Of a stretch of 49,483 bases of DNA, positions 1,779-46,335 are shown in pieces. Source of the stretch: an uncultured Gammaproteobacteria bacterium (GTDB lineage Bacteria > Patescibacteriota > Microgenomatia > UBA1406 > GWC2-37-13); assembly GCA_964358305.1 (NCBI GenBank), contig CAYHOJ010000001.1:1-49483 (forward strand), given 5' to 3'. The translations under genes and the position numbers were made by a program. The notes beneath the pieces were generated by a model. That model was given only the letters and a program-made list of their open reading frames with translations, had not been told where the DNA came from and did no database searches. The stretch's first letter is position 1. Every line of letters starts with the position of its first letter.

Positions 1779-2936
1779 ATGAACGACACAATTACTTGTC
1801 CGCACTGCAAAAAAAAGTTTCCCCTCGATCAGGCGATGACTCACGAGATAAAGGAACAACTTGAGGTAGAGACAAATAAAAAATTAGAAGATGAGAAAAA
1901 ACGTTTAAATGATGAAGCCCACAGTTGGAGAGAAAATCAACTAACAAAATTAAAAGAGAAAGCCAAAGAAGAGATGAAAATGCAGCTTAAAGATAAAAGT
2001 AATGAACTTGAGGAATTAAGGAATCAGAAAAAAACTTTGCAGGAACAAACATTAGAACTGAATAAACTAATACGCCAAATAAAACAAGAAAGTGACAATC
2101 AAAGAATTGAAATGGAAAAGAAATTAATGACTTCACAAGAAAATATTAGGGAAGAGGAAAAAAGAAAGTCTGACGAAGAAAACAAACTAAAAATTTTGGA
2201 AAAAGATAAGAAAATATCAGACGCAATGAAAATGGTTGAAGAATATAAAAGAAAATTAGAACAAGGATCTCAGCAGTCTCAAGGAGAAGTAATGGAAGAT
2301 GAATTAAAAAAAATATTAGGAACAGAATTCCCTTATGATTTTATATCCGACGTACCCAAAGGTATTCGAGGAGCTGATTTAGTACAGACAGTAAAAAATA
2401 ACGCCGGAAAAGAATGCGGAACGATTTTATGGGAGTCAAAAAGAACTAAAGCCTGGACTGAGGGATGGATATCTAAATTGAAACAAGATCAAAGAGAAAT
2501 AAAAGCAGAACTGGCTATTATTGTGACTCAAGTTATGCCGCAGGGGGTAAAAAATTTTGGGTTGAAGGATGGAATCTGGGTGGTTGATTATAAAACAGTA
2601 ATAGGAGCGGCAATATCTCTCAGAAACAATTTGATAGAAGTATTTGGTGTTCGTTCAGCAAATCGCGGCAAAGAAGAAAAAAAAGAAATTTTATGGAACT
2701 ATTTAACCAGTGTAGAATTTAAACAACGGGTTGAAGCAATCTACGAATCTTATAACAGTTTGCGTGATGAATTACAAAAAGAAAAAGATTGGTTCACTCA
2801 TAAATGGGCTAGGGAAGAAAAAAATATTTCTTTAATTAAAGATAATTTACTTGGTATGCATGGAGATTTGGAAGGGATTGTGGGAAAGACACTCCCGGAA
2901 TTAGAGCAGTTGAAAGAACTAGGATCAGGAAAATAA
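1779..2936 (+). CDS. DUF2130 family coiled-coil protein
   Basis: N-terminal CPHC, long coiled coil, GSQQSQGEV, GAD and ILWESKRTKAW motifs. Confidence 0.85.
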   Translation: MNDTITCPHCKKKFPLDQAMTHEIKEQLEVETNKKLEDEKKRLNDEAHSWRENQLTKLKEKAKEEMKMQLKDKSNELEELRNQKKTLQEQTLELNKLIRQIKQESDNQRIEMEKKLMTSQENIREEEKRKSDEENKLKILEKDKKISDAMKMVEEYKRKLEQGSQQSQGEVMEDELKKILGTEFPYDFISDVPKGIRGADLVQTVKNNAGKECGTILWESKRTKAWTEGWISKLKQDQREIKAELAIIVTQVMPQGVKNFGLKDGIWVVDYKTVIGAAISLRNNLIEVFGVRSANRGKEEKKEILWNYLTSVEFKQRVEAIYESYNSLRDELQKEKDWFTHKWAREEKNISLIKDNLLGMHGDLEGIVGKTLPELEQLKELGSGK

Positions 2937-2946
2937 AAAAACGGAA

Positions 2947-3033
2947 GTCATTCCCGCGAAGGCGGGAATCCAGACTAAAATAACTTTTTAAAATGTAATT
3001 ATCGACTGGATCCCCTCCTACGAGGGGATGACA
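2947..3033. repeat. Inverted doublet of GTCATTCCCGCGAAGGCGGGAATCCAG-type REP (dRS3-like)
   Basis: Hairpin 2947-2973 and an inverted variant 3004-3032 around an AT-rich spacer. Confidence 0.85.
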
Positions 3034-9323: not shown

Positions 9324-9328
9324 TCTCT

Positions 9329-9360
9329 GTCATCCCCGCGGAGGCGGGGATCCAGTCTAG
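9329..9360. repeat. dRS3-like REP GTCATCCCCGCGGAGGCGGGGATCCAG
   Basis: Variant of the 2947 hairpin with a compensatory stem change. Confidence 0.8.
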
Positions 9361-9384
9361 AATTACAGTATTTAAAATTGTTTT

Positions 9385-11139
9385 ATGCTTTTTTCTGAGC
9401 TTTCTAAATATTTTGAAAGAATTGAAAAAAATTCTTCCCGCCTGGAAATAACGAGAATATTAGCGGAATTATTTAAGTTATTGAATGTTCAAGAGATCAC
9501 AAAAGTTGTTTATTTACTTCAAGGAAGAGTGGGCCCCGCCTATGAAGGAATTGATTTTGGCATGGCTGAGAGAACCATCATTAAATCTGCCATGTCCGCT
9601 CTCAACATTGACCGGAATTATTTTGAAAAAGAGTTTAAAAAGAGCGGTGATCTAGGGCAGACTGTTGAAAGTTTTAAAAAACTTTATAAGTCGTTTGAAG
9701 AAAAAGATATGGAAGTACTGGCAGTTTTTGATTTTTTTTATAAACTAGCGACTGCCTCTGGGAACGGTTCACAAGACGTTAAAGTAAGTCTTCTCTCTCA
9801 ATTAATTCGCCAACTTGACCCGTTATCAGGAAGATATTTAGTCCGTCTTCCGACCGGTATTATCCGCCTCGGGTTTTCTGATATGACGATACTTGATGCT
9901 TATTCTTGGATGTTAAAAGGAGATAAGAGTTTGCGATCAATTATTGAGACCGCCTATCACGTCCGGCCTGACTTAGGATTTATTGGAAAAATATTAAAAG
10001 AAAAAGGAATTAAGGGTTTAGAAGAAATAGAACCAAAAGTCTTTACACCGATTATTATGATGAAGGCGGAAAGAATGTCATCAGCCAAAGAAATAATCAA
10101 GCAAATTGGCAAATGTTTAGTTGAGCCTAAATTTGATGGGTTTAGGTTGCAGGTGCATTATCTAGGGTCTGACCCTCGACGAGGGTCAGACCCTACCGAA
10201 AGCCTTCCAAAGGTTAGATTGTTCTCCCGAAGTCTCGAGGACGTTACATACATGTATCCTGATATTGTTGAAGGAGTAAGGAGGGAAATTAAAGCTGATG
10301 AATTAATCATTGAGGGGGAGGCGATTGGTTATAATCCAAAGACAGGTGAGTTTCTTCCGTTTCAGGAAACAGTTCAGCGTAAACGAAAATATGATATTGG
10401 GGCAAAATCAATTGAAGTGCCTTTAAAACTTTTTGCTTTTGAGCTTTTATATCTAAACGGAAAAAATTTTATAAAAAAACCGTTTATTGAACGAAGAAAA
10501 GCTCTGGAACAGGTGACGATAAAAAATAAGGATATAAGTAAGCAAATCATAGTTGTTGATCATCAAGAAGAAGTAGACAAAGAAGAACGGCTAGAGGAAA
10601 TTTTTGATCAGGCGGTTGCTAAAAAGTTAGAAGGGGTGATTGCTAAAAAAATTGATGGTATCTATCAACCGGGCGCTCGCGGTTGGAATTGGATCAAGTA
10701 TAAAAGGAGCTATTCTTCAAAGGTTAACGATACAATTGATTGTCTGGTGATGGGCTATGACTTTGGGAAAGGAAAGAGGACGGATTTTGGTATGGGAGCG
10801 TTTTTGGTTGGGGTAAGAGAAGAAAAAAATGATAAATTTGTGACGGTGGCTAAAATTGGTACAGGGTTGACAGATGAGGAATGGAGGTTTCTCAAAATTA
10901 AATCTCAAATATCAAAACTCAAAGATAAGCCAATGAATTATTCTGTTGATAAAGCTATGAATTGCGATGTGTGGATTTCTCCTGCAATTGTGGTTGAGAT
11001 TAGGGCTGATGAAATTACTAAGTCACCAACTCATACAGCCGGCTTGGCATTACGGTTTCCTCGTTTAGAAAAATTTAGAGATGATAAAAAACCAGATGAT
11101 GTAACTACGCTGGAAGAGTTAAAGGGACTCTCTTTATAA
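9385..11139 (+). CDS. lig: ATP-dependent DNA ligase
   Basis: EPKFDGFR adenylation motif, EGE, EGVIAK, WIKYK, ALRFPR. Confidence 0.95.
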   Translation: MLFSELSKYFERIEKNSSRLEITRILAELFKLLNVQEITKVVYLLQGRVGPAYEGIDFGMAERTIIKSAMSALNIDRNYFEKEFKKSGDLGQTVESFKKLYKSFEEKDMEVLAVFDFFYKLATASGNGSQDVKVSLLSQLIRQLDPLSGRYLVRLPTGIIRLGFSDMTILDAYSWMLKGDKSLRSIIETAYHVRPDLGFIGKILKEKGIKGLEEIEPKVFTPIIMMKAERMSSAKEIIKQIGKCLVEPKFDGFRLQVHYLGSDPRRGSDPTESLPKVRLFSRSLEDVTYMYPDIVEGVRREIKADELIIEGEAIGYNPKTGEFLPFQETVQRKRKYDIGAKSIEVPLKLFAFELLYLNGKNFIKKPFIERRKALEQVTIKNKDISKQIIVVDHQEEVDKEERLEEIFDQAVAKKLEGVIAKKIDGIYQPGARGWNWIKYKRSYSSKVNDTIDCLVMGYDFGKGKRTDFGMGAFLVGVREEKNDKFVTVAKIGTGLTDEEWRFLKIKSQISKLKDKPMNYSVDKAMNCDVWISPAIVVEIRADEITKSPTHTAGLALRFPRLEKFRDDKKPDDVTTLEELKGLSL

Positions 11140-17742: not shown

Positions 17743-19869
17743 ATGAGCATTAATATGGATTCAAAATATCAGCCGCAATTAGTCGAAGAGAAAATTTATA
17801 AAGAGTGGGAGGAAAAAGGTTATTTCAAAGCAAGTGTTAATAAAAAGAAAAAACCATTTTCAATTATTTTACCTCCACCAAACGCCAACGGTAGTCTTCA
17901 CTTGGGACACGCAATGTTTACCTATGAAGACATCATGATCAGATTCAATAAAATGATGGGAAAGGAAACTCTTTGGTTATTAGGACTAGATCATGCAGGG
18001 ACAGAGACACAATTTGTATTTGAAAAATATTTAAAAAAACAAGGCAAAAGTCGATATGACTACAAACGTGATGAACTTTATAAAATGATTTGGGACTATG
18101 TGGCTGAAAATAAAAATAATATTAAAAACCAATTAAAACGATTAGGATTTGCTCTTGATTGGAGTCGGGAAAAATTTACAATGGATCCAGAGATAGTCAA
18201 AATTGTTTATAAAACTTTTAAAGATTTATATAATCAAGGATTAATTTATAGAGCAAATAAATTAATTAATTATTGTACTAACTGTGGAACTTCATTTTCA
18301 GATCTGGAGGTAGTTTACGTTGAGAGAACTGATTCATTGTATTTCATGAAGTATGGACCTTTCACTTTGGCAACAACCAGACCAGAAACAAAGTTTGGTG
18401 ATACCGCTGTGGCTGTTCACCCTGACGATAAGCGTTATCAGAAATGGATAGGTAAGGAGATAGAGGTTGATGGACTAATAGGAAAATTCAAAGTAATAGT
18501 GGTTGCCGATTGGGCAGTTGATCCTAAATTTGGAACAGGGGCAGTAAAAGTCACACCAGCTCATGATTTTAACGACTATGAAATTTCCAAAAGACATAAC
18601 CTTCCCATGAAGCAGGTGATAGGATTTGACGGTAAGTTAAATGAACTAGCCGGGAAGTATCAAGGGTTAAGAATTTTTTCTGCTCGTCAACAGGTTGTTG
18701 CGGACCTCCAAGCAAAAGGGCAGATGGTAAAAATAAAAGAAGATTATGTACATCGTGTAGGAACGTGTTATAAGTGTGGAAAAGTTCTTGAGCCGCTCCC
18801 AAAAGAACAATGGTTTATAAAAATAAAACCCTTAGCTGATAAAGCAAAAGAACTAATTGAAAAAAAAGAAACTGAAGTTTTACCAAAAAGGTTTAAAAAA
18901 AGATTAACAACGATTTTAGATGATTTTATTGATTGGAATATATCTCGTCAGGTTGTGTGGGGCATACGAATTCCAGCTTATCGATGTAAGGCAAAAAATG
19001 AATGGTTTATTTCAACAGATAAGCCAGATAAATGTCAGATCTGTGATGGAAATGATTTTGAACAAGACGAAGACACTTTTGATACCTGGTTCTCATCGGC
19101 CCAATGGCCCTACGCCACATTAATGACAGAAGGACAAGAAACTTTTGATTATTTTTACCCAACTTCAGTAATGGAAACAGGGCATGATATACTCCGAGCT
19201 TGGGTTGCCAGAATGATGATGATTGGATATTTTTCCACAAAAAAAACTCCCTTCAAGACAATATTTTTACACGGAATGGTCCGTGATTCCAAGGGTCAGA
19301 AGATGAGTAAAAGTAAAGGAAATGTAATTGATCCAATTCTAATGATTGATAAATATGGGGCCGATGCTCTTAGGTCAGCGCTTATTTTTGGAACCAAAGA
19401 AGGAGGAGATATTTCTTTATCTGAAGAAAAAGTGATTGGAATGAGAAATTTTATTAATAAGATTTGGAACGTTGGAAGATTTATTGAAATAAATAATAAA
19501 GTAGTGGAGCAATTTATTGCTCCAAAAATTAATGGTGCGATGAATCGCACCACAACAAAAACATTATTAAAAGAATTGGAAAAAGAATACAAAAAAGAAA
19601 AGAAACAATATATAAGATACATGGATTCGTATCAGTTCTCAAAGGCTTTGGGGTTAGTCTACGAGTTTATTTGGCATCGGTTTGCCGATTATTACATAGA
19701 ACAATTGAAAGATGAAGTAATTAATGGTAATATAGAAGCTCTCGGTAAATTGAAAGAAGTATATTTAGAGAATCTAAAAATGCTTCACCCGTTTATCCCA
19801 TTTGTAACTGAGACGGTTTGGAAGGTGTTTAATAAGGAAGACAGTTCAATATTAGAAGTTAATTTATAA
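17743..19869 (+). CDS. valS: Valine--tRNA ligase (short form; start may be 17755)
   Basis: [37 protein letters not shown]. Confidence 0.97.
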
Positions 19870-19882
19870 TACGAATACCACT

Positions 19883-20017
19883 ATGAAACGTACCTATCAG
19901 CCAAAAAAAGCTAAAAGAGTAAAAAAACACGGATTTTTAAAGAGAATGGATAGTCATGATGGAAGAAAAGTGCTGAAAAGAAGAAGAGGAAAAGGAAGAG
20001 CGAAGCTAACAGTATAA
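19883..20017 (+). CDS. rpmH: 50S ribosomal protein L34 (not in ORF track)
   Basis: [44 protein letters not shown]. Confidence 0.97.
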
Positions 20018-20118
20018 TACGAATACTACGAATAAAGAAATCCGAATGCTGCAAATTATGCGAATATTCGTATAATTCGTATCATTTGCATAAAGATTCG
20101 TATCATTCGTATTATATT
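20015..20118 (+). repeat. Empty CGAAT/ATTCG two-armed element (copy A)
   Basis: Begins with the rpmH TAA, ends directly at the yidC ATG; arms joined at GAATATTC. Confidence 0.9.
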
Positions 20119-20946
20119 ATGTTAAATCCAAACTTATTTAATACTGTCTTTGTCATTCCAATTTTAAATTTATTGGTTGTTTTTTATAAGTTATTTTTAT
20201 TTATTAAGCTTCCTGGTGCTTTCGGATTTGCGATTATTGCTTTAACAGTCGCTGTCCGCTTACTTTTTCAACCTTTTTTTCAGAAACAGATAGAGACAGC
20301 CAAAAAAATGCAGGAACTCAAACCTCATTTAGATAATCTTTCTTCAAAACATAAAGATGATAAAAAACAACTTCAAGCTGAGCAGTTGAAGCTTTATCAA
20401 CAACATGGAATTAATCCGACTTCCGGTTGTTTGGTAATGATTATCCAACTACCAATCTTTATTGCTTTATATAACACCCTAAATTTATTTTTATTAAACG
20501 GTCATGCAGAAAAGACAATTACGGCTATAAATAAAGTTTTGTATTTTTCTTTTTTGAAAATTGATTCAGTTAATTCTTGGTTTTTTGGATTGGATTTGGT
20601 TAAAACGCCAAAACAAGCCGGTACATGGATATATTTATTAATTCCGTTGATAACAGGAATTCTACAATATTTTCAAGCTCAAGCCTCTATGCCGTCAACC
20701 TCAGGAGAGAAAACCTCCGCGGTTGGCTTAAGCAAGAAACCAGGGCAAACCGCGGAGGTTAAAAACAAGGATGGTGGCGGTGATTTCCAAAAAGCCATGA
20801 ACACGCAAATGAAATACATGTTTCCGCTGATGATCGGTTGGTTCTCATATACTTTGCCAATAGGCTTAGCTTTATATTGGAATATTTTTTCGATTATGGG
20901 TATAATACAGTACAAAAAGGTGAATGGAAAATTAAAAGTTAAATAA
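20119..20946 (+). CDS. yidC: Membrane protein insertase YidC/Oxa1 (start revised to 20119)
   Basis: FGFAIIALTVAVR, LYQQHGINP..GCL..IQLPIF, GLALYW. Confidence 0.95.
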   Translation: MLNPNLFNTVFVIPILNLLVVFYKLFLFIKLPGAFGFAIIALTVAVRLLFQPFFQKQIETAKKMQELKPHLDNLSSKHKDDKKQLQAEQLKLYQQHGINPTSGCLVMIIQLPIFIALYNTLNLFLLNGHAEKTITAINKVLYFSFLKIDSVNSWFFGLDLVKTPKQAGTWIYLLIPLITGILQYFQAQASMPSTSGEKTSAVGLSKKPGQTAEVKNKDGGGDFQKAMNTQMKYMFPLMIGWFSYTLPIGLALYWNIFSIMGIIQYKKVNGKLKVK

Positions 20947-20947
20947 A

Positions 20948-21046
20948 TAATACAAATACAACGAATGAAGAAATGCAAATGACACGAATTATACGAATAT
21001 TCGCATAATTTGCAGCATTCGCATAAAAATTCGTATCATTCGTATT
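20948..21046 (+). repeat. Empty CGAAT/ATTCG two-armed element (copy B)
   Basis: Starts 1 nt after the yidC stop; aligns with copy A. Confidence 0.9.
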
Positions 21047-21060
21047 TTAAAAATAATATT

Positions 21061-21516
21061 ATGGATAAGACACAGGTTATCAAAACTGAAACGGAAGAAC
21101 TATTGGGAAAAATGATTACAAAGTTTGAGGTGGAAGTGACCGATGATGGCGGAGTTTTTCAGGTAATTATTAAAACTGATGAAGAAGTATCAACTGTAAT
21201 CGGTCGCCATGGAGAAACAATCCGAGCCATTCAAAAAATATTAGAAGTAATTCTTTACAAAAAATTTAATGAAAGAGTTGAAATTTTAGTGAACGTCAAC
21301 GACTTTCGGGAAAAACAAAAGGAACGACTTGAAACAATGGCTCGTGAATATGCAGATCAAACCAAAGCAGCCGGAACAGCCGGATATATTCGCTCACTTT
21401 CATCTTTTGAGAGAAAGTTGATTCACGAATTTATAACTGCCAACTATCCTGACCTGACCACTTCGTCAGTTGGAGAGGGTAGGGAAAGACAGTTGGTGAT
21501 TGAAGCCAAAAAATAA
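21061..21516 (+). CDS. jag: Jag/EloR-like RNA-binding protein (KH + R3H, no Jag_N); start revised to 21061
   Basis: VIGRHGETIRAIQ (KH), SFERKLIH (R3H), located after yidC. Confidence 0.88.
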   Translation: MDKTQVIKTETEELLGKMITKFEVEVTDDGGVFQVIIKTDEEVSTVIGRHGETIRAIQKILEVILYKKFNERVEILVNVNDFREKQKERLETMAREYADQTKAAGTAGYIRSLSSFERKLIHEFITANYPDLTTSSVGEGRERQLVIEAKK

Positions 21517-22016
21517 TACGAATACCGCGAATAAAGAAATACGAATATAGCAAATTATGCTAATATTGGGTTATGGGGAAAATTATACACCCAGAGCTTT
21601 CGTTTAAAGTTAATGGAATTCTATTTAAAACTCATAATCAATTGGGAAGATATTATAGCGAAGGACAATATGCTGATTTTGTAGAAAAACTTCTCAAAGA
21701 ATCCAATATTAGGTATGAACGCGAAAAAATACTTCCACCGATATTTGATGGAGAAAAGACTGGAAGAAATAAAGTAGATTTCTTAATAGAAGATACAATT
21801 ATTTTAGAATTAAAATCAAAGACAATAATTACAAAAGACGATTATTATCAAGTAAAAAGATATTTGACGGCGCTAAATAAAAAACTTGGAATTATAGTTA
21901 ATTTTAGATCTTCTTACATTTATCCAAAAAGAGTTTTGAATTCTTCAGCAAATGAATAAGTTTTTATTCGTATAATTTACATCATTTGCATAAAATTCGT
22001 AGATTCGTATTTTATT
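21514..22016 (+). mobile_element. Filled CGAAT/ATTCG element carrying the GxxExxY gene
   Basis: Left arm 21514-21567 and right arm 21965-22016 match the two halves of the empty copies. Confidence 0.7.
21573..21959 (+). CDS. GxxExxY family PD-(D/E)XK nuclease-like protein
   Basis: LGRYYSEGQY, VDFLIEDTIILELKS, QVKRYL, LGIIVNF. Confidence 0.9.
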   Translation: MGKIIHPELSFKVNGILFKTHNQLGRYYSEGQYADFVEKLLKESNIRYEREKILPPIFDGEKTGRNKVDFLIEDTIILELKSKTIITKDDYYQVKRYLTALNKKLGIIVNFRSSYIYPKRVLNSSANE

Positions 22017-22053
22017 AGTTGTTTAGCTTCGTGATTTTTGTTAAAGTGTAATC

Positions 22054-22431
22054 ATGGCTGACGAAAAATTTATTTTAGATGTCAATGATCAAGATGGGTT
22101 TAGAAAGTTTATTGAATATGAAGCAGCTACATTAATTATTTCCCTCCTTGAAAAAGGGTCGGTCGATGAGGATAAGGCAGGTAAGCTTTCACAGTTAACT
22201 CTCGACTTGATAATTCCCGGAATGACCGTTGAGGAACTTTATTTGAGCGGAGTCAAGCTTGATGATCACGATCCAGAATTGGCTCCGGTCGTCTACAAAA
22301 TCATGAAGATCTATGAAGAAAAATTTGAGAAAAAAGCCATCGCTCAAGTCTCAGTCATGGTCAAAAACAAGCAGTTTGGCCAGGCACAGGATTTAGTAAA
22401 AAAAATTTTACAATTTAAGATGGGTAATTAA
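22054..22431 (+). CDS. Hypothetical protein
   Basis: 125-aa ORF; its last 16 codons are duplicated at 24452-24499. Confidence 0.75.
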   Translation: MADEKFILDVNDQDGFRKFIEYEAATLIISLLEKGSVDEDKAGKLSQLTLDLIIPGMTVEELYLSGVKLDDHDPELAPVVYKIMKIYEEKFEKKAIAQVSVMVKNKQFGQAQDLVKKILQFKMGN

Positions 22432-22451
22432 TTCTGTTATAATACTTGAGT

Positions 22452-22754
22452 ATGACCAACGAAAATAAAAATAAGGCAATAAAAATAATCGAGAAACTTA
22501 GACTTATTGAAAGCGAAATATTTCGCCTGTCTTCTAAGTATGGTGTAAAAACAGTTGACGAATTAGACCTTCTAATTAAAAAAGGTAAATTGACTGAAGA
22601 AGATGCCGGAAACGAAGTCTTTCTTTTTGATTATTTGATTAGTGAAAAGGAAATTCTAGAAAAAGAATTAAAAAAATTAGAGATAAGCAAAGCCTTGATA
22701 TGGAAAAATTTGCAAAGTTTGCTCGAATTGCCGAAATTGAGTTTTCAGACATAA
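22452..22754 (+). CDS. Putative antitoxin partner of the DUF6516 protein
   Basis: Small helical protein (KYGVKTVDEL), extended -10 8 nt upstream, overlaps next gene. Confidence 0.55.
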   Translation: MTNENKNKAIKIIEKLRLIESEIFRLSSKYGVKTVDELDLLIKKGKLTEEDAGNEVFLFDYLISEKEILEKELKKLEISKALIWKNLQSLLELPKLSFQT

Positions 22755-23083
22755 TTCTCTCAACTCATTTACTTGATCTAAAACTCAGAATTTACTTTAA
22801 AGACAAAAGTTATCTTGATTTTTTCTATACAACACATCTTAGAATTCAAAGATTTTCGATTCATTGGGAAAGAAATCATGTAGATAAAACAATCTATAGA
22901 CTTGATAATACTCCGGACACAAAATGGAAACGGGTTCAAACATTTCCATTTCATTTTCATGACGGTAAGTATGATAAAGTAAAACAAACACCATTTTTTA
23001 TCAAAGATGACTTCAAATTAGAAGAAATATTTAGAGATTTTTTGAAGTTTGCGAGAAAAATTATTGTTCAAAAAAATGTTTGA
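22700..23083 (+). CDS. DUF6516 / TumE-like putative toxin
   Basis: YRLDNTP...TFPFHFHDG motif. Confidence 0.7.
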   Translation: MEKFAKFARIAEIEFSDIILSTHLLDLKLRIYFKDKSYLDFFYTTHLRIQRFSIHWERNHVDKTIYRLDNTPDTKWKRVQTFPFHFHDGKYDKVKQTPFFIKDDFKLEEIFRDFLKFARKIIVQKNV

Positions 23084-23475: not shown

Positions 23476-23674
23476 ATAACTTAACAACGGCCGTGGGTAA
23501 GATATATATCGAAGAAATTACATTGTCCCAAAAATCTAATCAACTACTTTTGTAGGTTATCCTTCGACTTCGCTCAGGACAAGTAAGCGGTTGACAAGAT
23601 TAATACCACTATTTAAATTTAACTTGAGATAAGTTAATTATAAATTACATCTATCCCACGGCCGTGGACAAGAT
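23476..23674 (+). promoter_or_regulatory. Two ACGGCCGT-core palindromes bracketing the interrupted leader motif and TTGACA promoter
   Basis: Palindromes at 23476-23505 and 23649-23674; motif 23548-23589 with a 24-bp insert. Confidence 0.7.
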
Positions 23675-23691
23675 AACTAAATTTCAATATT

Positions 23692-24279
23692 ATGAAAAAT
23701 TTAAAGGAGACAAAGTTGAAAAGAGGACAACTATATTGGTATATCTTAGAAATTATCGGTTTGACTTTAGTATCAGGCGGTAATCCGCTTCGACCGATTA
23801 TTCCTTTGGCTATTAAAGAAATCATTAAAATTCTAAAGGAAGTTAAAAATCTAAATGTTGAGGAGGTAAAAATAAGAAAAAGCTTAGAAAGATTGGAGGA
23901 AAAAGAAATCGTTGATATAGAAGAGAGAGATGGAAAAGTTTTCGTGAGATTAAAAGATCAAAATAATTCGACAATAATAAAATATTCGATCAAAGCACTT
24001 TTAGATTTTAAAAAGAAAGAGAAAAAATGGAATGGAAAATGGTTTCTAATTTTTTTTGATGTACCAGAAATACAAAGAAATAAACGGGATTATTTACGTG
24101 ATTATTTACAAAAAATAGGATTCTATAGATATCAACAGAGCGTTTACATTTTTCCTTACGAGTGTGAAAAGGAGATAGATTTAATCAAAAAGATTGTTGA
24201 GGGAGCAAAATATATGAGGTATATAATAGCCGAGAAAATAGAGGATGAAGAAAGAATTAAAACCTTTTTTAAACTGTAA
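23692..24279 (+). CDS. CPR-type PaaX-like protein (wHTH + Cas2-like domain)
   Basis: KWNGKWFLIFFDVPE..RNKRDYLRDYL..GFYRYQQSVYIFPYEC. Confidence 0.85.
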   Translation: MKNLKETKLKRGQLYWYILEIIGLTLVSGGNPLRPIIPLAIKEIIKILKEVKNLNVEEVKIRKSLERLEEKEIVDIEERDGKVFVRLKDQNNSTIIKYSIKALLDFKKKEKKWNGKWFLIFFDVPEIQRNKRDYLRDYLQKIGFYRYQQSVYIFPYECEKEIDLIKKIVEGAKYMRYIIAEKIEDEERIKTFFKL

Positions 24280-24282
24280 TAA

Positions 24283-24312
24283 TTATCTTACCTACGGCCG
24301 TGGAGGAGTTAA
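24283..24312. repeat. Third ACGGCCGT-core palindrome, 3 nt after the stop
   Basis: TTATCTTACCTACGGCCGTGGAGGAGTTAA. Confidence 0.75.
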
Positions 24313-24451
24313 TTAATTATTTGGGACTTCAGAAGAACTTGGTAGAGGGAGGGTCCGACCCTGTATATATAGACAGGGAGTGAAGATATCTGATATTATA
24401 AAGACATAAAGAGGAATTTAATAAAATTCCATAGGTTAGTAATTTAGCTAA

Positions 24452-30746: not shown

Positions 30747-32468
30747 TTAGGGTTTATGTTGTTGTCCTGCGTTATCTGCGAATATCTGTTTACCACCAGG
30801 CAGTTTTTGTAATAAGTCTCTTACAGGTTTAATATAGAATCCAATTCCGGCGACCTTAGATAGTTCTCCAAGTCCGCCGGAAATTCCGGTTGTGGCACCG
30901 CCAAAGAATACGCCTGGACCGGCTTGATCAAGTAATCCCGGCTTGGGAATAAATACGGCTCTGACAGCTTTAACCAAATCCGGAGTCATGAAAAGTATAG
31001 CCATACCTATAATGTAACCAAAACTTTTTGGTTCTACTCCACCCAAAAGAGGGAATGTTACTAAATTTCCACTAGAAGCTTTATCAGCAATAATAGAACC
31101 AAGAACAAAAATTCCTATTACTAAAGGAAAGGTAATTAATTCTCCAGCTAAATTTTTTAACCAGTTAATAAATGCATTTTGACCCGGAATGGCTTCAAAT
31201 AGCAGGTAAATAGGAGATAAGATAATACTTAATAGAATTTTTATATAAGAACTAAAGAGCATAAACACTATTCTGAAAAATATAAATACTAAAGAAAACC
31301 AAATGATTAAGCCTAATAACAAATTAACTCCAGCATACATCAAAATACCGAACAATAATATTGTTGTTATAAAATTTGCTCCACCTAAAAATGGGTCTAC
31401 AATTGCTTTTAATTTGGCCGAAAGTTTAACGTTTGCTACGACTATACCTCCTTCAACCGCAGGCTCCGCTTCGCTCAATCCAGCAAGTGCTTTCTCGATT
31501 ATATGTGTTTCTACCCATTGAATTACAGGTAAAGACACATAAGTAAGAATACCTCCTCCAACAATTCTTGTTATTAAACCAAGACTAGGAATCAAACCTA
31601 AAATTGCATTTGGTAAAGTATATATAAATGTCCAAAATGAATTATCATTAAGTTTACCGGTACCAGTATAAACTGCGCCAAGATCTGCTGTGAGATAATA
31701 TTGTTGTAGAGCGGGTATATCTTTTGGAGCCGTAATACTGTTACCTCCAGTAAAATCATAGACTGGACCTAAAATTGAAATAATTACTGCAATTAGCATA
31801 TACATCAAATCAATCATAAATCCGGCGATGGCGAAGGAAAAGGTAATTAAGATTAAAGCAATTATGATTTTTGGGAGAGAATTTTCTACGGAGATGACAG
31901 TTTGAGGATTGATCTTAGTGCGGAACATAATCATAAAACCGATTGCTATTAAAACGACTACTAACAGTAGGTATGTTACATCTCGAAATATCTTCCAAAT
32001 TTTGGCAAAAGGCTGGATTGAGCCCATACCGATTCCTTCAGCGGCCAGAGTCTTTGGGACAAAACCGGCATTAGCAAGTCCTGAATAAGTCCAGGCAATT
32101 CCTGAAGCCGGTGGATTGGCAAAAGGCAAGACTATTAAATTACTCACAAATCCTAGAAAACTTTTTCCATAGTTTTTATCAGCATCGGCGGGATTATTGG
32201 TACAGGCTTCTCCCATCATCGAGCACATCATTCCTTTATACATAAAAATAGTCAGCTTGCCCTGGGTAGTTTTGTTAAGCTCTTTATCATTGATTACTTT
32301 GTAGATTTCTTTGCGGTTTTCTAAGATTGGATTCGTTTTGGATGTATTTAAAGCAATTTTGTCTTTACTTATAAAATGGGAAAAAAGTGAGATGACGGCA
32401 AAGTAGACGATGACGACTAAAAGAACTTTTTTTGCAATATTTAAGTAGGGTTTCAAAAATGAGAACAT
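30747..32468 (-). CDS. VirB6/TrbL-like polytopic membrane protein (start revised to 32468)
   Basis: WKIFRD..GFMIMFR..LPKIIIALILITFSFAIAGFMID and ILSPIYLLFEAIPG patterns. Confidence 0.65.
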   Translation of the reverse strand: MFSFLKPYLNIAKKVLLVVIVYFAVISLFSHFISKDKIALNTSKTNPILENRKEIYKVINDKELNKTTQGKLTIFMYKGMMCSMMGEACTNNPADADKNYGKSFLGFVSNLIVLPFANPPASGIAWTYSGLANAGFVPKTLAAEGIGMGSIQPFAKIWKIFRDVTYLLLVVVLIAIGFMIMFRTKINPQTVISVENSLPKIIIALILITFSFAIAGFMIDLMYMLIAVIISILGPVYDFTGGNSITAPKDIPALQQYYLTADLGAVYTGTGKLNDNSFWTFIYTLPNAILGLIPSLGLITRIVGGGILTYVSLPVIQWVETHIIEKALAGLSEAEPAVEGGIVVANVKLSAKLKAIVDPFLGGANFITTILLFGILMYAGVNLLLGLIIWFSLVFIFFRIVFMLFSSYIKILLSIILSPIYLLFEAIPGQNAFINWLKNLAGELITFPLVIGIFVLGSIIADKASSGNLVTFPLLGGVEPKSFGYIIGMAILFMTPDLVKAVRAVFIPKPGLLDQAGPGVFFGGATTGISGGLGELSKVAGIGFYIKPVRDLLQKLPGGKQIFADNAGQQHKP

Positions 32469-32478
32469 AAATTTATTA

Positions 32479-32532
32479 TAATACGAATGATGCGAATTAA
32501 GCAATGCGAATATAGCGAATTATGCGAATATT
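32479..32532 (-). repeat. Single (downstream) arm of the CGAAT/ATTCG element
   Basis: Five CGAAT units, co-oriented with the gene starting at 32468. Confidence 0.8.
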
Positions 32533-32539
32533 AAAATGA

Positions 32540-32599
32540 ATATTTAGTCTGGATTCCCGCCTCCCCTTCGATGGAACTCAGGGTAAACGCGGGAATGAC
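32540..32599. repeat. Composite REP: dRS3-like hairpin with 24-bp insert
   Basis: 60 nt identical to 46276-46335. Confidence 0.9.
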
Positions 32600-32794
32600 A
32601 TAAGGAATATTTACGCTTGACATGGGTAAATAGTTACTATGGAATGTTACTAAAATATGAAAATAGATACGTTGTTAAGTATCTAATTGTTACCTGTGGT
32701 ATTAAAAATAATAAACTTAATCTAAAAATTCACTTGACAATATTTTAGATTTGTAGTATAAGTAAAAGTATTATATATTGAGCAAAGTCGAAAT

Positions 32795-33034
32795 ATGAGA
32801 ACAATTACTGTCAGCCCACAAGGGCAAATAACTATACCGATGGATTTGCGTCGAGCTTTAAATTTAAAGTCAGGCTCAACGATGATACTTGATGTGGTTG
32901 ATTGGGTAAAAAGTAAAGCAATGGTATTACGACCAACTCCTAAAAATTGGGTCGATGAGGTATCAGGGTCCGGAGAGGGGCTTTGGGGTAAAGACTCGGA
33001 CGAGTATTTAGAAAAAACTAGAAATCAATGGTAA
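32795..33034 (+). CDS. AbrB/MazE-type antitoxin
   Basis: TITVSPQGQITIPMDLRRALNL; promoter TTGACA-N17-TATAAG at 32734-32762. Confidence 0.88.
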   Translation: MRTITVSPQGQITIPMDLRRALNLKSGSTMILDVVDWVKSKAMVLRPTPKNWVDEVSGSGEGLWGKDSDEYLEKTRNQW

Positions 33035-33477
33035 ATAAACTGATAAAAACTGCGATAGAAGCAAAGGTAGTAGGTGTTGATACGATGCTCTTCATTTATC
33101 TTTTCGAGAATAATAAAAAATATTTTTTAATTGTCAAAGAATTATTTTATTTGTTGGAAAAAGAAAAAATCACAGTAGTCACTTCAATTATCAGTCCTAT
33201 TGAGATAATATCAACGCCTTCGATCGAAGAATATCCGGAAAAACAACGACTATATCTTAGTTTTTTTAAAAAGATGAAAAATTTGAGAATAAAAGAAATA
33301 GATTGGGAACTGGTCGAAAAGGTGGGATATTTTCGAAGGAAATATAATTTGCGTACTCCAGATGCGATTCAACTAACAACAGCAATAGAATCACAGGCCA
33401 AAATCTTTATGACTAATGATATAAAGTTTAAGAAAGTAACAGAAATTCCAGTTTTGATTCTTGATGAGGTTATTTGA
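33028..33477 (+). CDS. PIN-domain (VapC-like) toxin
   Basis: VDTMLFIY, LRTPDAIQL, MTND. Confidence 0.9.
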   Translation: MVNKLIKTAIEAKVVGVDTMLFIYLFENNKKYFLIVKELFYLLEKEKITVVTSIISPIEIISTPSIEEYPEKQRLYLSFFKKMKNLRIKEIDWELVEKVGYFRRKYNLRTPDAIQLTTAIESQAKIFMTNDIKFKKVTEIPVLILDEVI

Positions 33478-33941: not shown

Positions 33942-34054
33942 AATATAATACGAATCTGCGAATTTATGCAAATTCTGCGAATTATGCGAATTTCTTTTGT
34001 TTTATTCGTATAATTCGTATCATTTGCATTTCTTCATTTGTGGTATTCGTATTA
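33942..34054 (-). repeat. Empty CGAAT/ATTCG element with short central spacer
   Basis: On the - strand starts 2 nt after stop 34057 and ends just before ATG 33940. Confidence 0.9.
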
Positions 34055-34056
34055 TT

Positions 34057-41606: not shown

Positions 41607-41636
41607 TTATCTATGCCACGGCCGTGGGGGAGTTAT
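41607..41636. repeat. Orphan ACGGCCGT-core palindrome
   Basis: TTATCTATGCCACGGCCGTGGGGGAGTTAT; overlaps the stop of ORF 41611-42333. Confidence 0.75.
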
Positions 41637-42333
41637 TTGTTACTACTCCATTTATCTTATCAACAATACCCTCAATAAAATCAACGGAATCAGGAACACG
41701 ATCTCCATATCTCTTAAGAGCTTTTTCGGCAATTTCGACTCCATAATTTTTTTCTATCCAAGCACGACGTCCACTTTCAACAAAATAATTGAGGCCATAT
41801 TCTTTATCATCAAGTTCGTATCTTGGAACACCTTTTATTAAATCATTACCGGCTATATCGTTCATGATTTTAAAAATAAGCTCTTCACCATAATTTTTTC
41901 TTACCCAATGACCACGTTCTGCTACCCAAGGAATATGTTTTTTTGCTAAAACTATTAATTCTTTTGAGGTAAAAATTTTACTATCTATAAGACGTTTCAA
42001 ATCTTCTGGAGATATTCCTTTGATAACGTGTAAAAAAAGCTGGTCATTAGTCTCCATTATTTTTCTAAAAGCTTTAGGATTAGATGTTGCCGATTCAAGT
42101 AATAACTCAACTGTCTTAGCATTGCTAAGTGATTCTTTATAATTTTGAGTATTTATTCCACTTTTGACAGCTAATTTGGACATTAAAACAGATGTTTCGG
42201 GTAATGCTGTAAAAGTTGCAATATCATTTCCAAGTTGAGTACAATTTCTTTGTATGACTTTTAATACATTTTTCGACGGAGGTTCCATTAAATCTGCCGT
42301 ATTTAAAATGTGTGGAGCTTCACTATCAAGCAT
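41611..42333 (-). CDS. Hypothetical protein
   Basis: 240-aa ORF, no motif recognised. Confidence 0.7.
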   Translation of the reverse strand: MLDSEAPHILNTADLMEPPSKNVLKVIQRNCTQLGNDIATFTALPETSVLMSKLAVKSGINTQNYKESLSNAKTVELLLESATSNPKAFRKIMETNDQLFLHVIKGISPEDLKRLIDSKIFTSKELIVLAKKHIPWVAERGHWVRKNYGEELIFKIMNDIAGNDLIKGVPRYELDDKEYGLNYFVESGRRAWIEKNYGVEIAEKALKRYGDRVPDSVDFIEGIVDKINGVVTNNSPTAVA

Positions 42334-42493: not shown

Positions 42494-42678
42494 AAAATAC
42501 TTTAATTAATTAAAGTATTTTATAAGTAATGTTTTGCGAGTTTTTCCTTACTTTTTAAAAAACATGTGGCTGATAAGACAGAGTATACATCGATAAAAAT
42601 ATATTGTCTCATTAACCCGTTTGATTAGTTTTGTAGGTTATAAGCGGTGGACTGTCAAACTTTAATTAATTAAAGTTT
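42494..42678 (+). promoter_or_regulatory. Two ACTTTAATTAATTAAAGT palindromes bracketing the TTTTGTAGGTTATAAGCG leader
   Basis: Perfect palindromes 42494-42521 and 42657-42678; motif 42629-42646. Confidence 0.75.
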
Positions 42679-46259: not shown

Positions 46260-46275
46260 AATTAAATTATAAGGT

Positions 46276-46335
46276 ATATTTAGTCTGGATTCCCGCCTCC
46301 CCTTCGATGGAACTCAGGGTAAACGCGGGAATGAC
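46276..46335. repeat. Composite REP: dRS3-like hairpin with 24-bp insert
   Basis: Identical to 32540-32599. Confidence 0.9.

What the first reader, a model, noticed from the sequence alone, without database searches (positions are those of the whole stretch)
21514..22016. GxxExxY nuclease gene sits inside a two-armed repeat that also occurs empty: candidate new minimal mobile element
Seen: the arms flanking the GxxExxY gene (21514-21567, 21965-22016) match the two halves of ~100-bp gene-less elements at 20015-20118, 20948-21046 and 33942-34054 (left arm 45/52 nt identical to copy A by hand). The cargo is bounded by TATT on both sides (21564-21567, 21965-21968); deleting between them recreates the empty junction AATATTCG seen in copies A and B. 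Established: GxxExxY proteins have a PD-(D/E)XK-type fold; I know of no assigned function. Inference: an autonomous/non-autonomous pair in which this nuclease spreads or is carried by the repeat, with no transposase or integrase involved.
Basis: partly seen in the sequence, partly recalled or inferred. Interest (0 to 1): 0.9.

Follow-up and report, generated by a model that had tools for sequence, protein, structure and literature searches.

The report
Nuclease mini-element with empty hairpin copies
A 0.5-kb cassette, a tiny nuclease-fold gene between two mirror-image repeat arms, and 13 gene-less copies of those arms sit in gaps between genes of this small-genome bacterium; the enzyme likely recognises its own arms and likely helps them spread without a transposase, which would assign a first role to an unstudied protein family.

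Summary
Observation confirmed. The GxxExxY gene (21573-21959) sits at the centre of a ~100-bp imperfect palindrome. The genome holds 13 gene-less copies and 3 half copies. The pairing is general: 65 of 74 related GxxExxY genes have inverted arms (24 of 669 control ORFs). Arm sequence tracks protein sequence across unrelated loci (rho 0.68), and no such arm flanked any of 30 four-helix-bundle genes. The gene is under purifying selection, with an invariant PD-(D/E)XK active site. Orthologous gaps in relatives are filled, bare, or hold other hairpin families. One cassette is 477/481 identical at two loci. New here: copies point with transcription (13 of 13) and crowd into stop-start gaps. They replace the native spacer without a visible target duplication. 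Best reading: a selfish element whose nuclease likely cuts at its own arms, with host recombination pasting it in; activity is untested. Closest described systems are Ssn/NTS and REPIN/RAYT; it belongs to neither. Not found in ten literature searches. This scan noted the same arrangement in at least 19 other genomes.

The parts
21513..21567 (+). Left arm of the filled cassette: five copies of the word RC(G/A/T)AAT; overlaps the jag stop codon (21514-21516)
21573..21959 (+). GxxExxY (TIGR04256 / PF13366) gene, 128 aa, PD-(D/E)XK fold; invariant E30 D69 K81 Q93 Y97 (numbering); dN/dS 0.10-0.13 against four relatives
21965..22011 (+). Right arm, inverted relative to the left arm (short right-arm subtype)
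20014..20116 (+). Empty copy A, filling the rpmH stop - yidC start gap; that gap is a few bases only in G002 and G017
20947..21047 (+). Empty copy B, filling the yidC - jag gap
33945..34055 (-). Empty copy C with a short AT-rich central spacer, between two minus-strand genes and oriented with them
32478..32531 (+). Lone left arm ending at the palindrome centre, followed by a different (REP-like) palindrome; likely the remnant of a second filled cassette, since metagenome contigs L149/L150 carry arm-gene-arm at this gap

Best explanation
This is a small mobile cassette (arm - GxxExxY gene - inverted arm) with gene-less copies, and its nuclease likely recognises the short word repeated in its own arms and likely cuts there, so that host recombination would paste filled or empty copies into gaps between genes. 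Shown: the anatomy, 13 empties, specific and co-varying gene-arm pairing, purifying selection on an intact active site, occurrence in dozens of unrelated gene gaps, presence/absence at orthologous gaps, spacer replacement without a visible target duplication, and orientation with transcription. Inferred: expression by read-through from the host operon; binding of the word arrays, most likely as single-stranded or extruded DNA as in Ssn/NTS; cutting near the arm ends or at the palindrome centre; and joining by host homologous plus microhomology repair, perhaps on DNA taken up by competence, since a 128-aa hydrolytic nuclease has no known strand-transfer chemistry. Empties would arise by loss of the central gene and be moved in trans.
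For: Arms flank 65 of 74 scorable GxxExxY loci against 24 of 669 control ORFs. Arm similarity follows protein identity over 1892 different-locus pairs of 63 proteins (rho 0.68, permutation p 0.0005; rho 0.41, p 0.001 inside the main clade). Across 20 empties the word is conserved while pairing shows little covariation (2 of 18 pairs with a two-sided change, term -0.32), as expected of binding-site arrays. Catalytic-type residues are invariant in 55 sequences, the fold is PD-(D/E)XK (pLDDT 94.5), and dN/dS is 0.05-0.13 over 10 pairs. Neighbours differ widely and the gene runs with them in 36 of 37 co-directional cases. A cassette 477/481 identical lies at the jag gap (L151) and at a second gap (L150), with identity ending a few bases past the arm ends. 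Among 43 genus genomes arms and gene co-occur (8 both, 3 arms only, 5 gene only, 27 neither; Fisher p 0.001, kin not independent). Carriers at jag are not one clade (AU p 1e-39 and 0.002). ComEC is present and no reverse transcriptase was found (81% complete genome).
Against: No activity was measured. Four-helix-bundle genes show the same armed layout (28 of 30) and have their own empties, and their words fill the same gaps in relatives, so a nuclease is not needed for this architecture. G002 has an intact cassette yet no further pattern hits, so the gene alone does not cause expansion. Three genomes have arms without a gene found. The near-identical pair carries a frameshift in both copies and a chimeric contig (L148) exists, so gene conversion or assembly mixing could explain it. 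Synonymous divergence of the jag copy (0.24-0.40) is only a little below that of jag and yidC (0.34-0.51) and the gene is more AT-rich, so this insertion may be old with repeated losses. No excision joint was listed in four runs' contigs. 11 of 30 phylum and 5 of 8 cultured GxxExxY genes scored below the arm cut-off.
Confidence: 0.5

Rival explanations
1. Passenger model: the hairpins spread by host recombination or another enzyme, and GxxExxY and four-helix-bundle genes merely ride inside them.
For: Two unrelated protein families share the layout; Y1 transposases and ComEC are present; a frameshifted cassette was still duplicated.
Against: Each cargo keeps its own word family (0 of 30 cross-overs); arm and protein co-vary, though co-inheritance alone also gives this; active site invariant and dN/dS about 0.1; the Y1 genes' flanks show other palindromes.
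Confidence: 0.17
2. Domesticated Ssn-like system: the nuclease cuts word-bearing single-stranded DNA to gate natural transformation for the host; the repeats are its marks and spread only as a by-product.
For: Ssn of Neisseria, a small repeat-flanked nuclease, cuts ssDNA beside its hairpin and modulates transformation (PMC11893778, sections 7, 8, 12). One copy per genome in most carriers, purifying selection, ComEC present.
Against: Patchy presence (13 of 43 in the genus, 54 of 401 in the phylum), many unrelated sites, and frameshifted or internally deleted copies fit a selfish element better than a kept host function.
Confidence: 0.13
3. RNA-level element like the rRNA intervening sequences: the arms pair in the mRNA and are cut out or bound there, and movement goes through RNA.
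For: 13 of 13 empties point with transcription, also in the three cases where GC skew suggests the opposite replication strand; about 10 of 14 sit in co-directional gaps of 30 bp or less, which make up about 3% of intergenic bases (rough gene calls); the four-helix-bundle family is the IVS protein family (PMC4990558 abstract; PMC11270868 passages).
Against: Little covariation; on the sense strand A-C mismatches outnumber G-U (85 to 43; copies related) and the antisense strand folds lower in most copies; no Rfam match of note; no reverse transcriptase found.
Confidence: 0.12
4. Homing into hairpins: the enzyme cuts the centre of an empty palindrome and repair from a filled copy, using the arms as homology, converts it to filled.
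For: Lone arms end at the palindrome centre in several genomes; in L098 the gene lies reversed relative to the left/right arms; weak sequence likeness to the junction resolvase T7 endonuclease I (E 0.01).
Against: This genome keeps 13 unfilled empties beside an intact gene; inversion between inverted arms explains L098 more simply; the model does not explain how empties reach new gaps; structure searches do not rank resolvases first.
Confidence: 0.08

Closest known systems
Ssn nucleases with NTS/SRM repeats (PMC11893778; abstract and sections 7, 8, 12 read)
   Same: Small single-domain nuclease gene flanked on both sides by cognate hairpin repeats that also occur gene-less; the authors note an IS-like layout and propose co-evolving pairs.
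   Different: Ssn is GIY-YIG, this is PD-(D/E)XK. Here the gene sits at the centre of one ~100-bp palindrome built of 4-5 short words per arm, not beside 20-50-nt hairpins.
REPIN / RAYT (TnpA-REP) systems (PMC3116915, PMC8266576; abstracts read)
   Same: Usually single-copy enzyme gene with cognate inverted repeats; gene-less hairpin doublets spread through extragenic space; enzyme and repeat co-evolve.
   Different: RAYT is a HUH/Y1 transposase able to do strand transfer; this protein is not. No GTAG-type tag was noted, and each arm is a word array rather than a self-folding REP.
rRNA intervening sequences with S23p / four-helix-bundle ORF (PMC4990558 abstract; PMC11270868 passages)
   Same: An ORF in the loop of a long stem; ORF-bearing and ORF-less forms; horizontal spread by an unknown route.
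   Different: Here in mRNA gene gaps, with a nuclease-fold cargo; RNase III excision untested; little pairing covariation.
MITEs and their parent IS elements (general knowledge)
   Same: Autonomous-looking and non-autonomous forms sharing terminal inverted repeats.
   Different: No DDE or other transposase in the cassette, no target-site duplication seen, native spacer replaced.

Membership tests
GxxExxY protein family (TIGR04256 / PF13366) | HMM score over the curated cut-off | tested here: met
   76.4 bits vs 35; 80.9 vs 22
PD-(D/E)XK nucleases | Restriction-enzyme-like fold with conserved E, D, (D/E)xK residues | tested here: met
   Model pLDDT 94.5; best matches are Cas4, RecB-like, lambda-exo and restriction enzymes, Z up to 7.8 (middling); E30 D69 K81 invariant
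PD-(D/E)XK nucleases | Metal-dependent cleavage activity | not testable with these tools
   needs purified protein
REPIN/RAYT | Associated enzyme is a HUH/Y1 tyrosine transposase | tested here: not met
   Cargo is PF13366; the four Y1 genes lie elsewhere with other flanking palindromes
REPIN/RAYT | Gene-less hairpin doublets in extragenic space, cognate to a flanked enzyme gene | tested here: met
   13 empties; covariation
Ssn/NTS | GIY-YIG (cd10448) nuclease | tested here: not met
   PF13366, not PF01541
Ssn/NTS | Gene flanked on both sides by cognate repeats | tested here: met
Ssn/NTS | Site-specific cutting of ssDNA only | not testable with these tools
   needs biochemistry
MITE / IS pair | Terminal inverted repeats shared by long and short forms | tested here: met
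MITE / IS pair | Target-site duplication | tested here: inconclusive
   None visible against bare alleles at rpmH-yidC, ftsA both sides, rplI-pnp, yebC, but those are other species, not strains
MITE / IS pair | Long form encodes a known transposase | tested here: not met
   only ORF is GxxExxY
rRNA intervening sequence | Located in an rRNA gene | tested here: not met
   between protein genes
rRNA intervening sequence | Excised from RNA by RNase III | not testable with these tools
   no RNA holder listed

The most novel reading that the evidence does not exclude
A class of transposase-free mobile elements exists in which unrelated ~120-aa proteins (GxxExxY nucleases and four-helix-bundle proteins) each read their own short-word arm arrays and drive insertion of filled and empty cassettes specifically into the stop-start junctions of transcribed operons, replacing native leaders. 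GxxExxY proteins would then be a large natural library of tiny sequence-specific nucleases whose targets can be read off their flanks.
Probability: 0.3. Interest if true: 0.9.

Novelty: new variant of a known kind. Interest (0 to 1): 0.72.

Why it matters
PF13366 is listed as function unknown with multiple transfers (PMC3424549, table row read). The arms give each member a candidate substrate, so the family becomes directly testable, as happened for Ssn. If the enzyme mobilises its arms, it is a route to repeat spread without any known transposase. It would also explain why operon junctions in these streamlined genomes turn over between hairpin families and lose their native ribosome-binding leaders. 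The parallel four-helix-bundle cassettes tie this to the open question of how rRNA intervening sequences move.

Tried and rejected
Rfam scan of 19500-23000: two weak matches, E>0.5. Promoter/terminator scan: no excess over shuffles and no terminator on the hairpins in either direction, so 'reverse orientation terminates transcription' got no support. Sequencing runs: no RNA holder listed. Contigs of four runs: no joint removing the gene or a whole copy; the listed joints come from repeats or have short sides. No strain-level bare allele was obtained, so the target-duplication question stays open. Viral contigs: 3 distant GxxExxY loci, none with a second query, no exact arm match. PDB sequence search: no family member, weak T7 endonuclease I likeness; structure hits generic. 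ESM Atlas: only PF13366 clusters. Replication-strand explanation of orientation: rejected on three copies whose gene direction opposes the GC skew (skew on short contigs is a weak guide). TATT as duplication: not conserved. Recent horizontal arrival of the jag copy: suggested by lower dS but weakened by composition and raw synonymous differences. No oligomer prediction was obtained. Literature, ten searches: GxxExxY, 2 listed, one passage read, unrelated; TIGR04256/PF13366/PDDEXK_3, 2 listed, listings only, none describing this element. The library lacks most subscription papers and no supplements were read; the Ssn paper's supplementary tables could mention it.

Full report
Setting. The window is contig C1 of a 752-kb, 35% GC draft genome, 81% complete. 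Record titles of loci with close GxxExxY relatives name Patescibacteria and Roizmanbacteria, so I infer that group. The finding lies in valS-rpmH-yidC-jag.

Observation. All coordinates and hand counts hold: 45/52 identity to copy A, TATT on both sides, and the joined junction AATATTCG. A profile of nine arms finds 13 full empty palindromes, three lone arms and the one filled copy. Empties are 77-100% identical to each other, median 89%. Ten have a clean centre and three a short AT-rich spacer. Each arm is an array of 4-5 words of the form RCRAAT. Over 20 aligned empties the words are conserved while compensatory pairing is scarce. Contigs from three runs of one study span the cassette.

The protein. 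It is TIGR04256/PF13366. In 55 aligned relatives E30, D69, K81, Q93 and Y97 are invariant. The model is confident and matches PD-(D/E)XK nucleases generically (Cas4, RecB-like, lambda exonuclease, restriction enzymes; best Z 7.8). dN/dS among five jag-site copies is 0.05-0.13.

Is the pairing general and specific? Of 85 distinct GxxExxY loci from the family-level and metagenome searches, 74 had scorable flanks. Of these 65 scored 34 or more for inverted flanks, against 24 of 669 ORFs of this genome; top controls include genes lying between two whole hairpins, a four-helix-bundle gene and a Y1 transposase. In the 30 loci fetched from a 401-genome phylum draw (54 genomes with the gene), 19 passed. 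So did 3 of 8 from cultured bacteria of other phyla and 1 of 3 viral loci, against 1 of 158 shifted controls. Among 63 full-length proteins, arm similarity rises with protein identity across different loci (rho 0.68; 0.41 within the main clade); shared descent of whole cassettes also yields this. For specificity I took 30 of 64 four-helix-bundle matches in 12 genus genomes: none had these arms, but 28 had inverted arms of other words.

Has it moved? The cassette fills the gap between unrelated genes at dozens of loci, mostly with about 40-100 bp on each side. At the jag gap, G002, G008, G114 and some metagenome contigs carry it. G022 and G004 are bare, G001, G009 and G023 carry four-helix-bundle cassettes in either direction, and G017, G018 and G021 carry other hairpins; none carried this family's empty. 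Carriers do not form a clade, which fits repeated loss or allele exchange; divergence data cannot separate these. A second gap, at window 32468-33470, holds a near-identical cassette in L149/L150 (477/481 to the jag-gap copy L151), a flipped gene in L098, and a lone left arm in this genome and G001. That pair shares a frameshift and comes from short-read assemblies with one chimera, so it shows copying between loci but not its route. Arms and gene co-occur in the genus. This genome has the largest expansion: 32 pattern matches against at most 8 in 42 others.

Target pattern. All 13 empties point left-to-right with the adjacent gene, as do 8 of 11 in relatives. Nine of 14 copies, ten once rpmH (below the script's length cut-off) is counted, sit in co-directional gaps of 30 bp or less, about 3% of intergenic bases by rough gene calls. 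At ftsQ-ftsA, ftsA-ftsZ, rplI-pnp and yebC (gene names partly recalled from the translations), five relatives each show either a bare junction of 0-15 bases or a different hairpin family. At yebC the G-rich leader is replaced; no duplication is visible. Selection and targeting cannot be told apart here.

Mechanism. I favour a selfish cassette whose nuclease reads its word arrays and cuts, with host repair completing insertion (0.5). The Ssn paper (PMC11893778, sections 7, 8, 12 read) shows a tiny repeat-flanked nuclease cutting ssDNA beside its cognate hairpin, and leaves repeat spread as a hypothesis. The genome has ComEC; no reverse transcriptase was found; four Y1 transposase genes have other flanks. 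The main difficulty is the parallel four-helix-bundle cassettes, which need either their own chemistry or a shared host route. That this is a mobile, co-inherited gene-arm unit with gene-less derivatives I put at about 0.9.

Novelty. It fails the enzyme test for REPIN/RAYT, Ssn and IS/MITE while working like them in layout. Ten literature searches showed no description; PMC3424549 lists PF13366 as unknown. Inverted heptamer arrays in Xanthomonas and Nostoc were described without a nuclease link (PMC4692102, passages; 0 hits for 'nuclease' or 'transposase'). Earlier notes of this scan report the same arrangement in at least 19 other genomes; these are unchecked notes and I used them only as leads. 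Verdict: real, apparently undescribed, a new variant of the nuclease-plus-cognate-repeat kind; interest 0.72.

Noticed in passing
G000:C36:1156-1367 and C36:5744-5828: A second GxxExxY arm family: an internally deleted cassette (about 34 codons left, both arms kept) and one empty copy; longer or intact genes lie at the same gap in G004, G019 and G114.
   Followed up: partly
G000:C8:3460-3506: A lone right arm lies in frame inside a 622-aa ORF (acetyl-CoA synthetase-like, name recalled), adding a short peptide.
   Followed up: partly
L247-L276; G000:C2:2742-3263: Four-helix-bundle (TIGR02436) genes are armed in 28 of 30 loci, each clade with its own word; their gene-less forms fill the same operon gaps in relatives and occur in this genome at C13 and C44.
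   Followed up: partly
window 2931-3033, 9328-9385, 32530-32599, 46266-46335; L195: A REP-like GC-rich palindrome family; in G002 it flanks a small ORF that reads like a GIY-YIG nuclease (recalled motif), i.e. an Ssn/NTS-like pair.
   Followed up: no
window 23503-23560, 42584-42641 and many contigs: A recurring motif ending TTTTGTAGGTTATAAGCGG precedes small regulator, Y1-transposase and four-helix-bundle genes; possibly a shared promoter or operator.
   Followed up: no
window 23476-24314, 41607-41638: PaaX-like gene (23692-24279) flanked by inverted CACGGCCGTG palindromes, with another copy at 41607.
   Followed up: no
G000:C44:154-360, C65:1543-1752: Small GIY-YIG genes directly between what look like tRNA 5' fragments and tRNA genes (tRNA identity not checked).
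   Followed up: no
L076, L009 (and long open frames): Some GxxExxY frames run on into the downstream pilin-like gene, giving 300-700 aa read-through ORFs.
   Followed up: no
window 22446-23083: TumE-like toxin gene pair next to the cassette; a similar pair follows a lone arm in G004 (L047).
   Followed up: no
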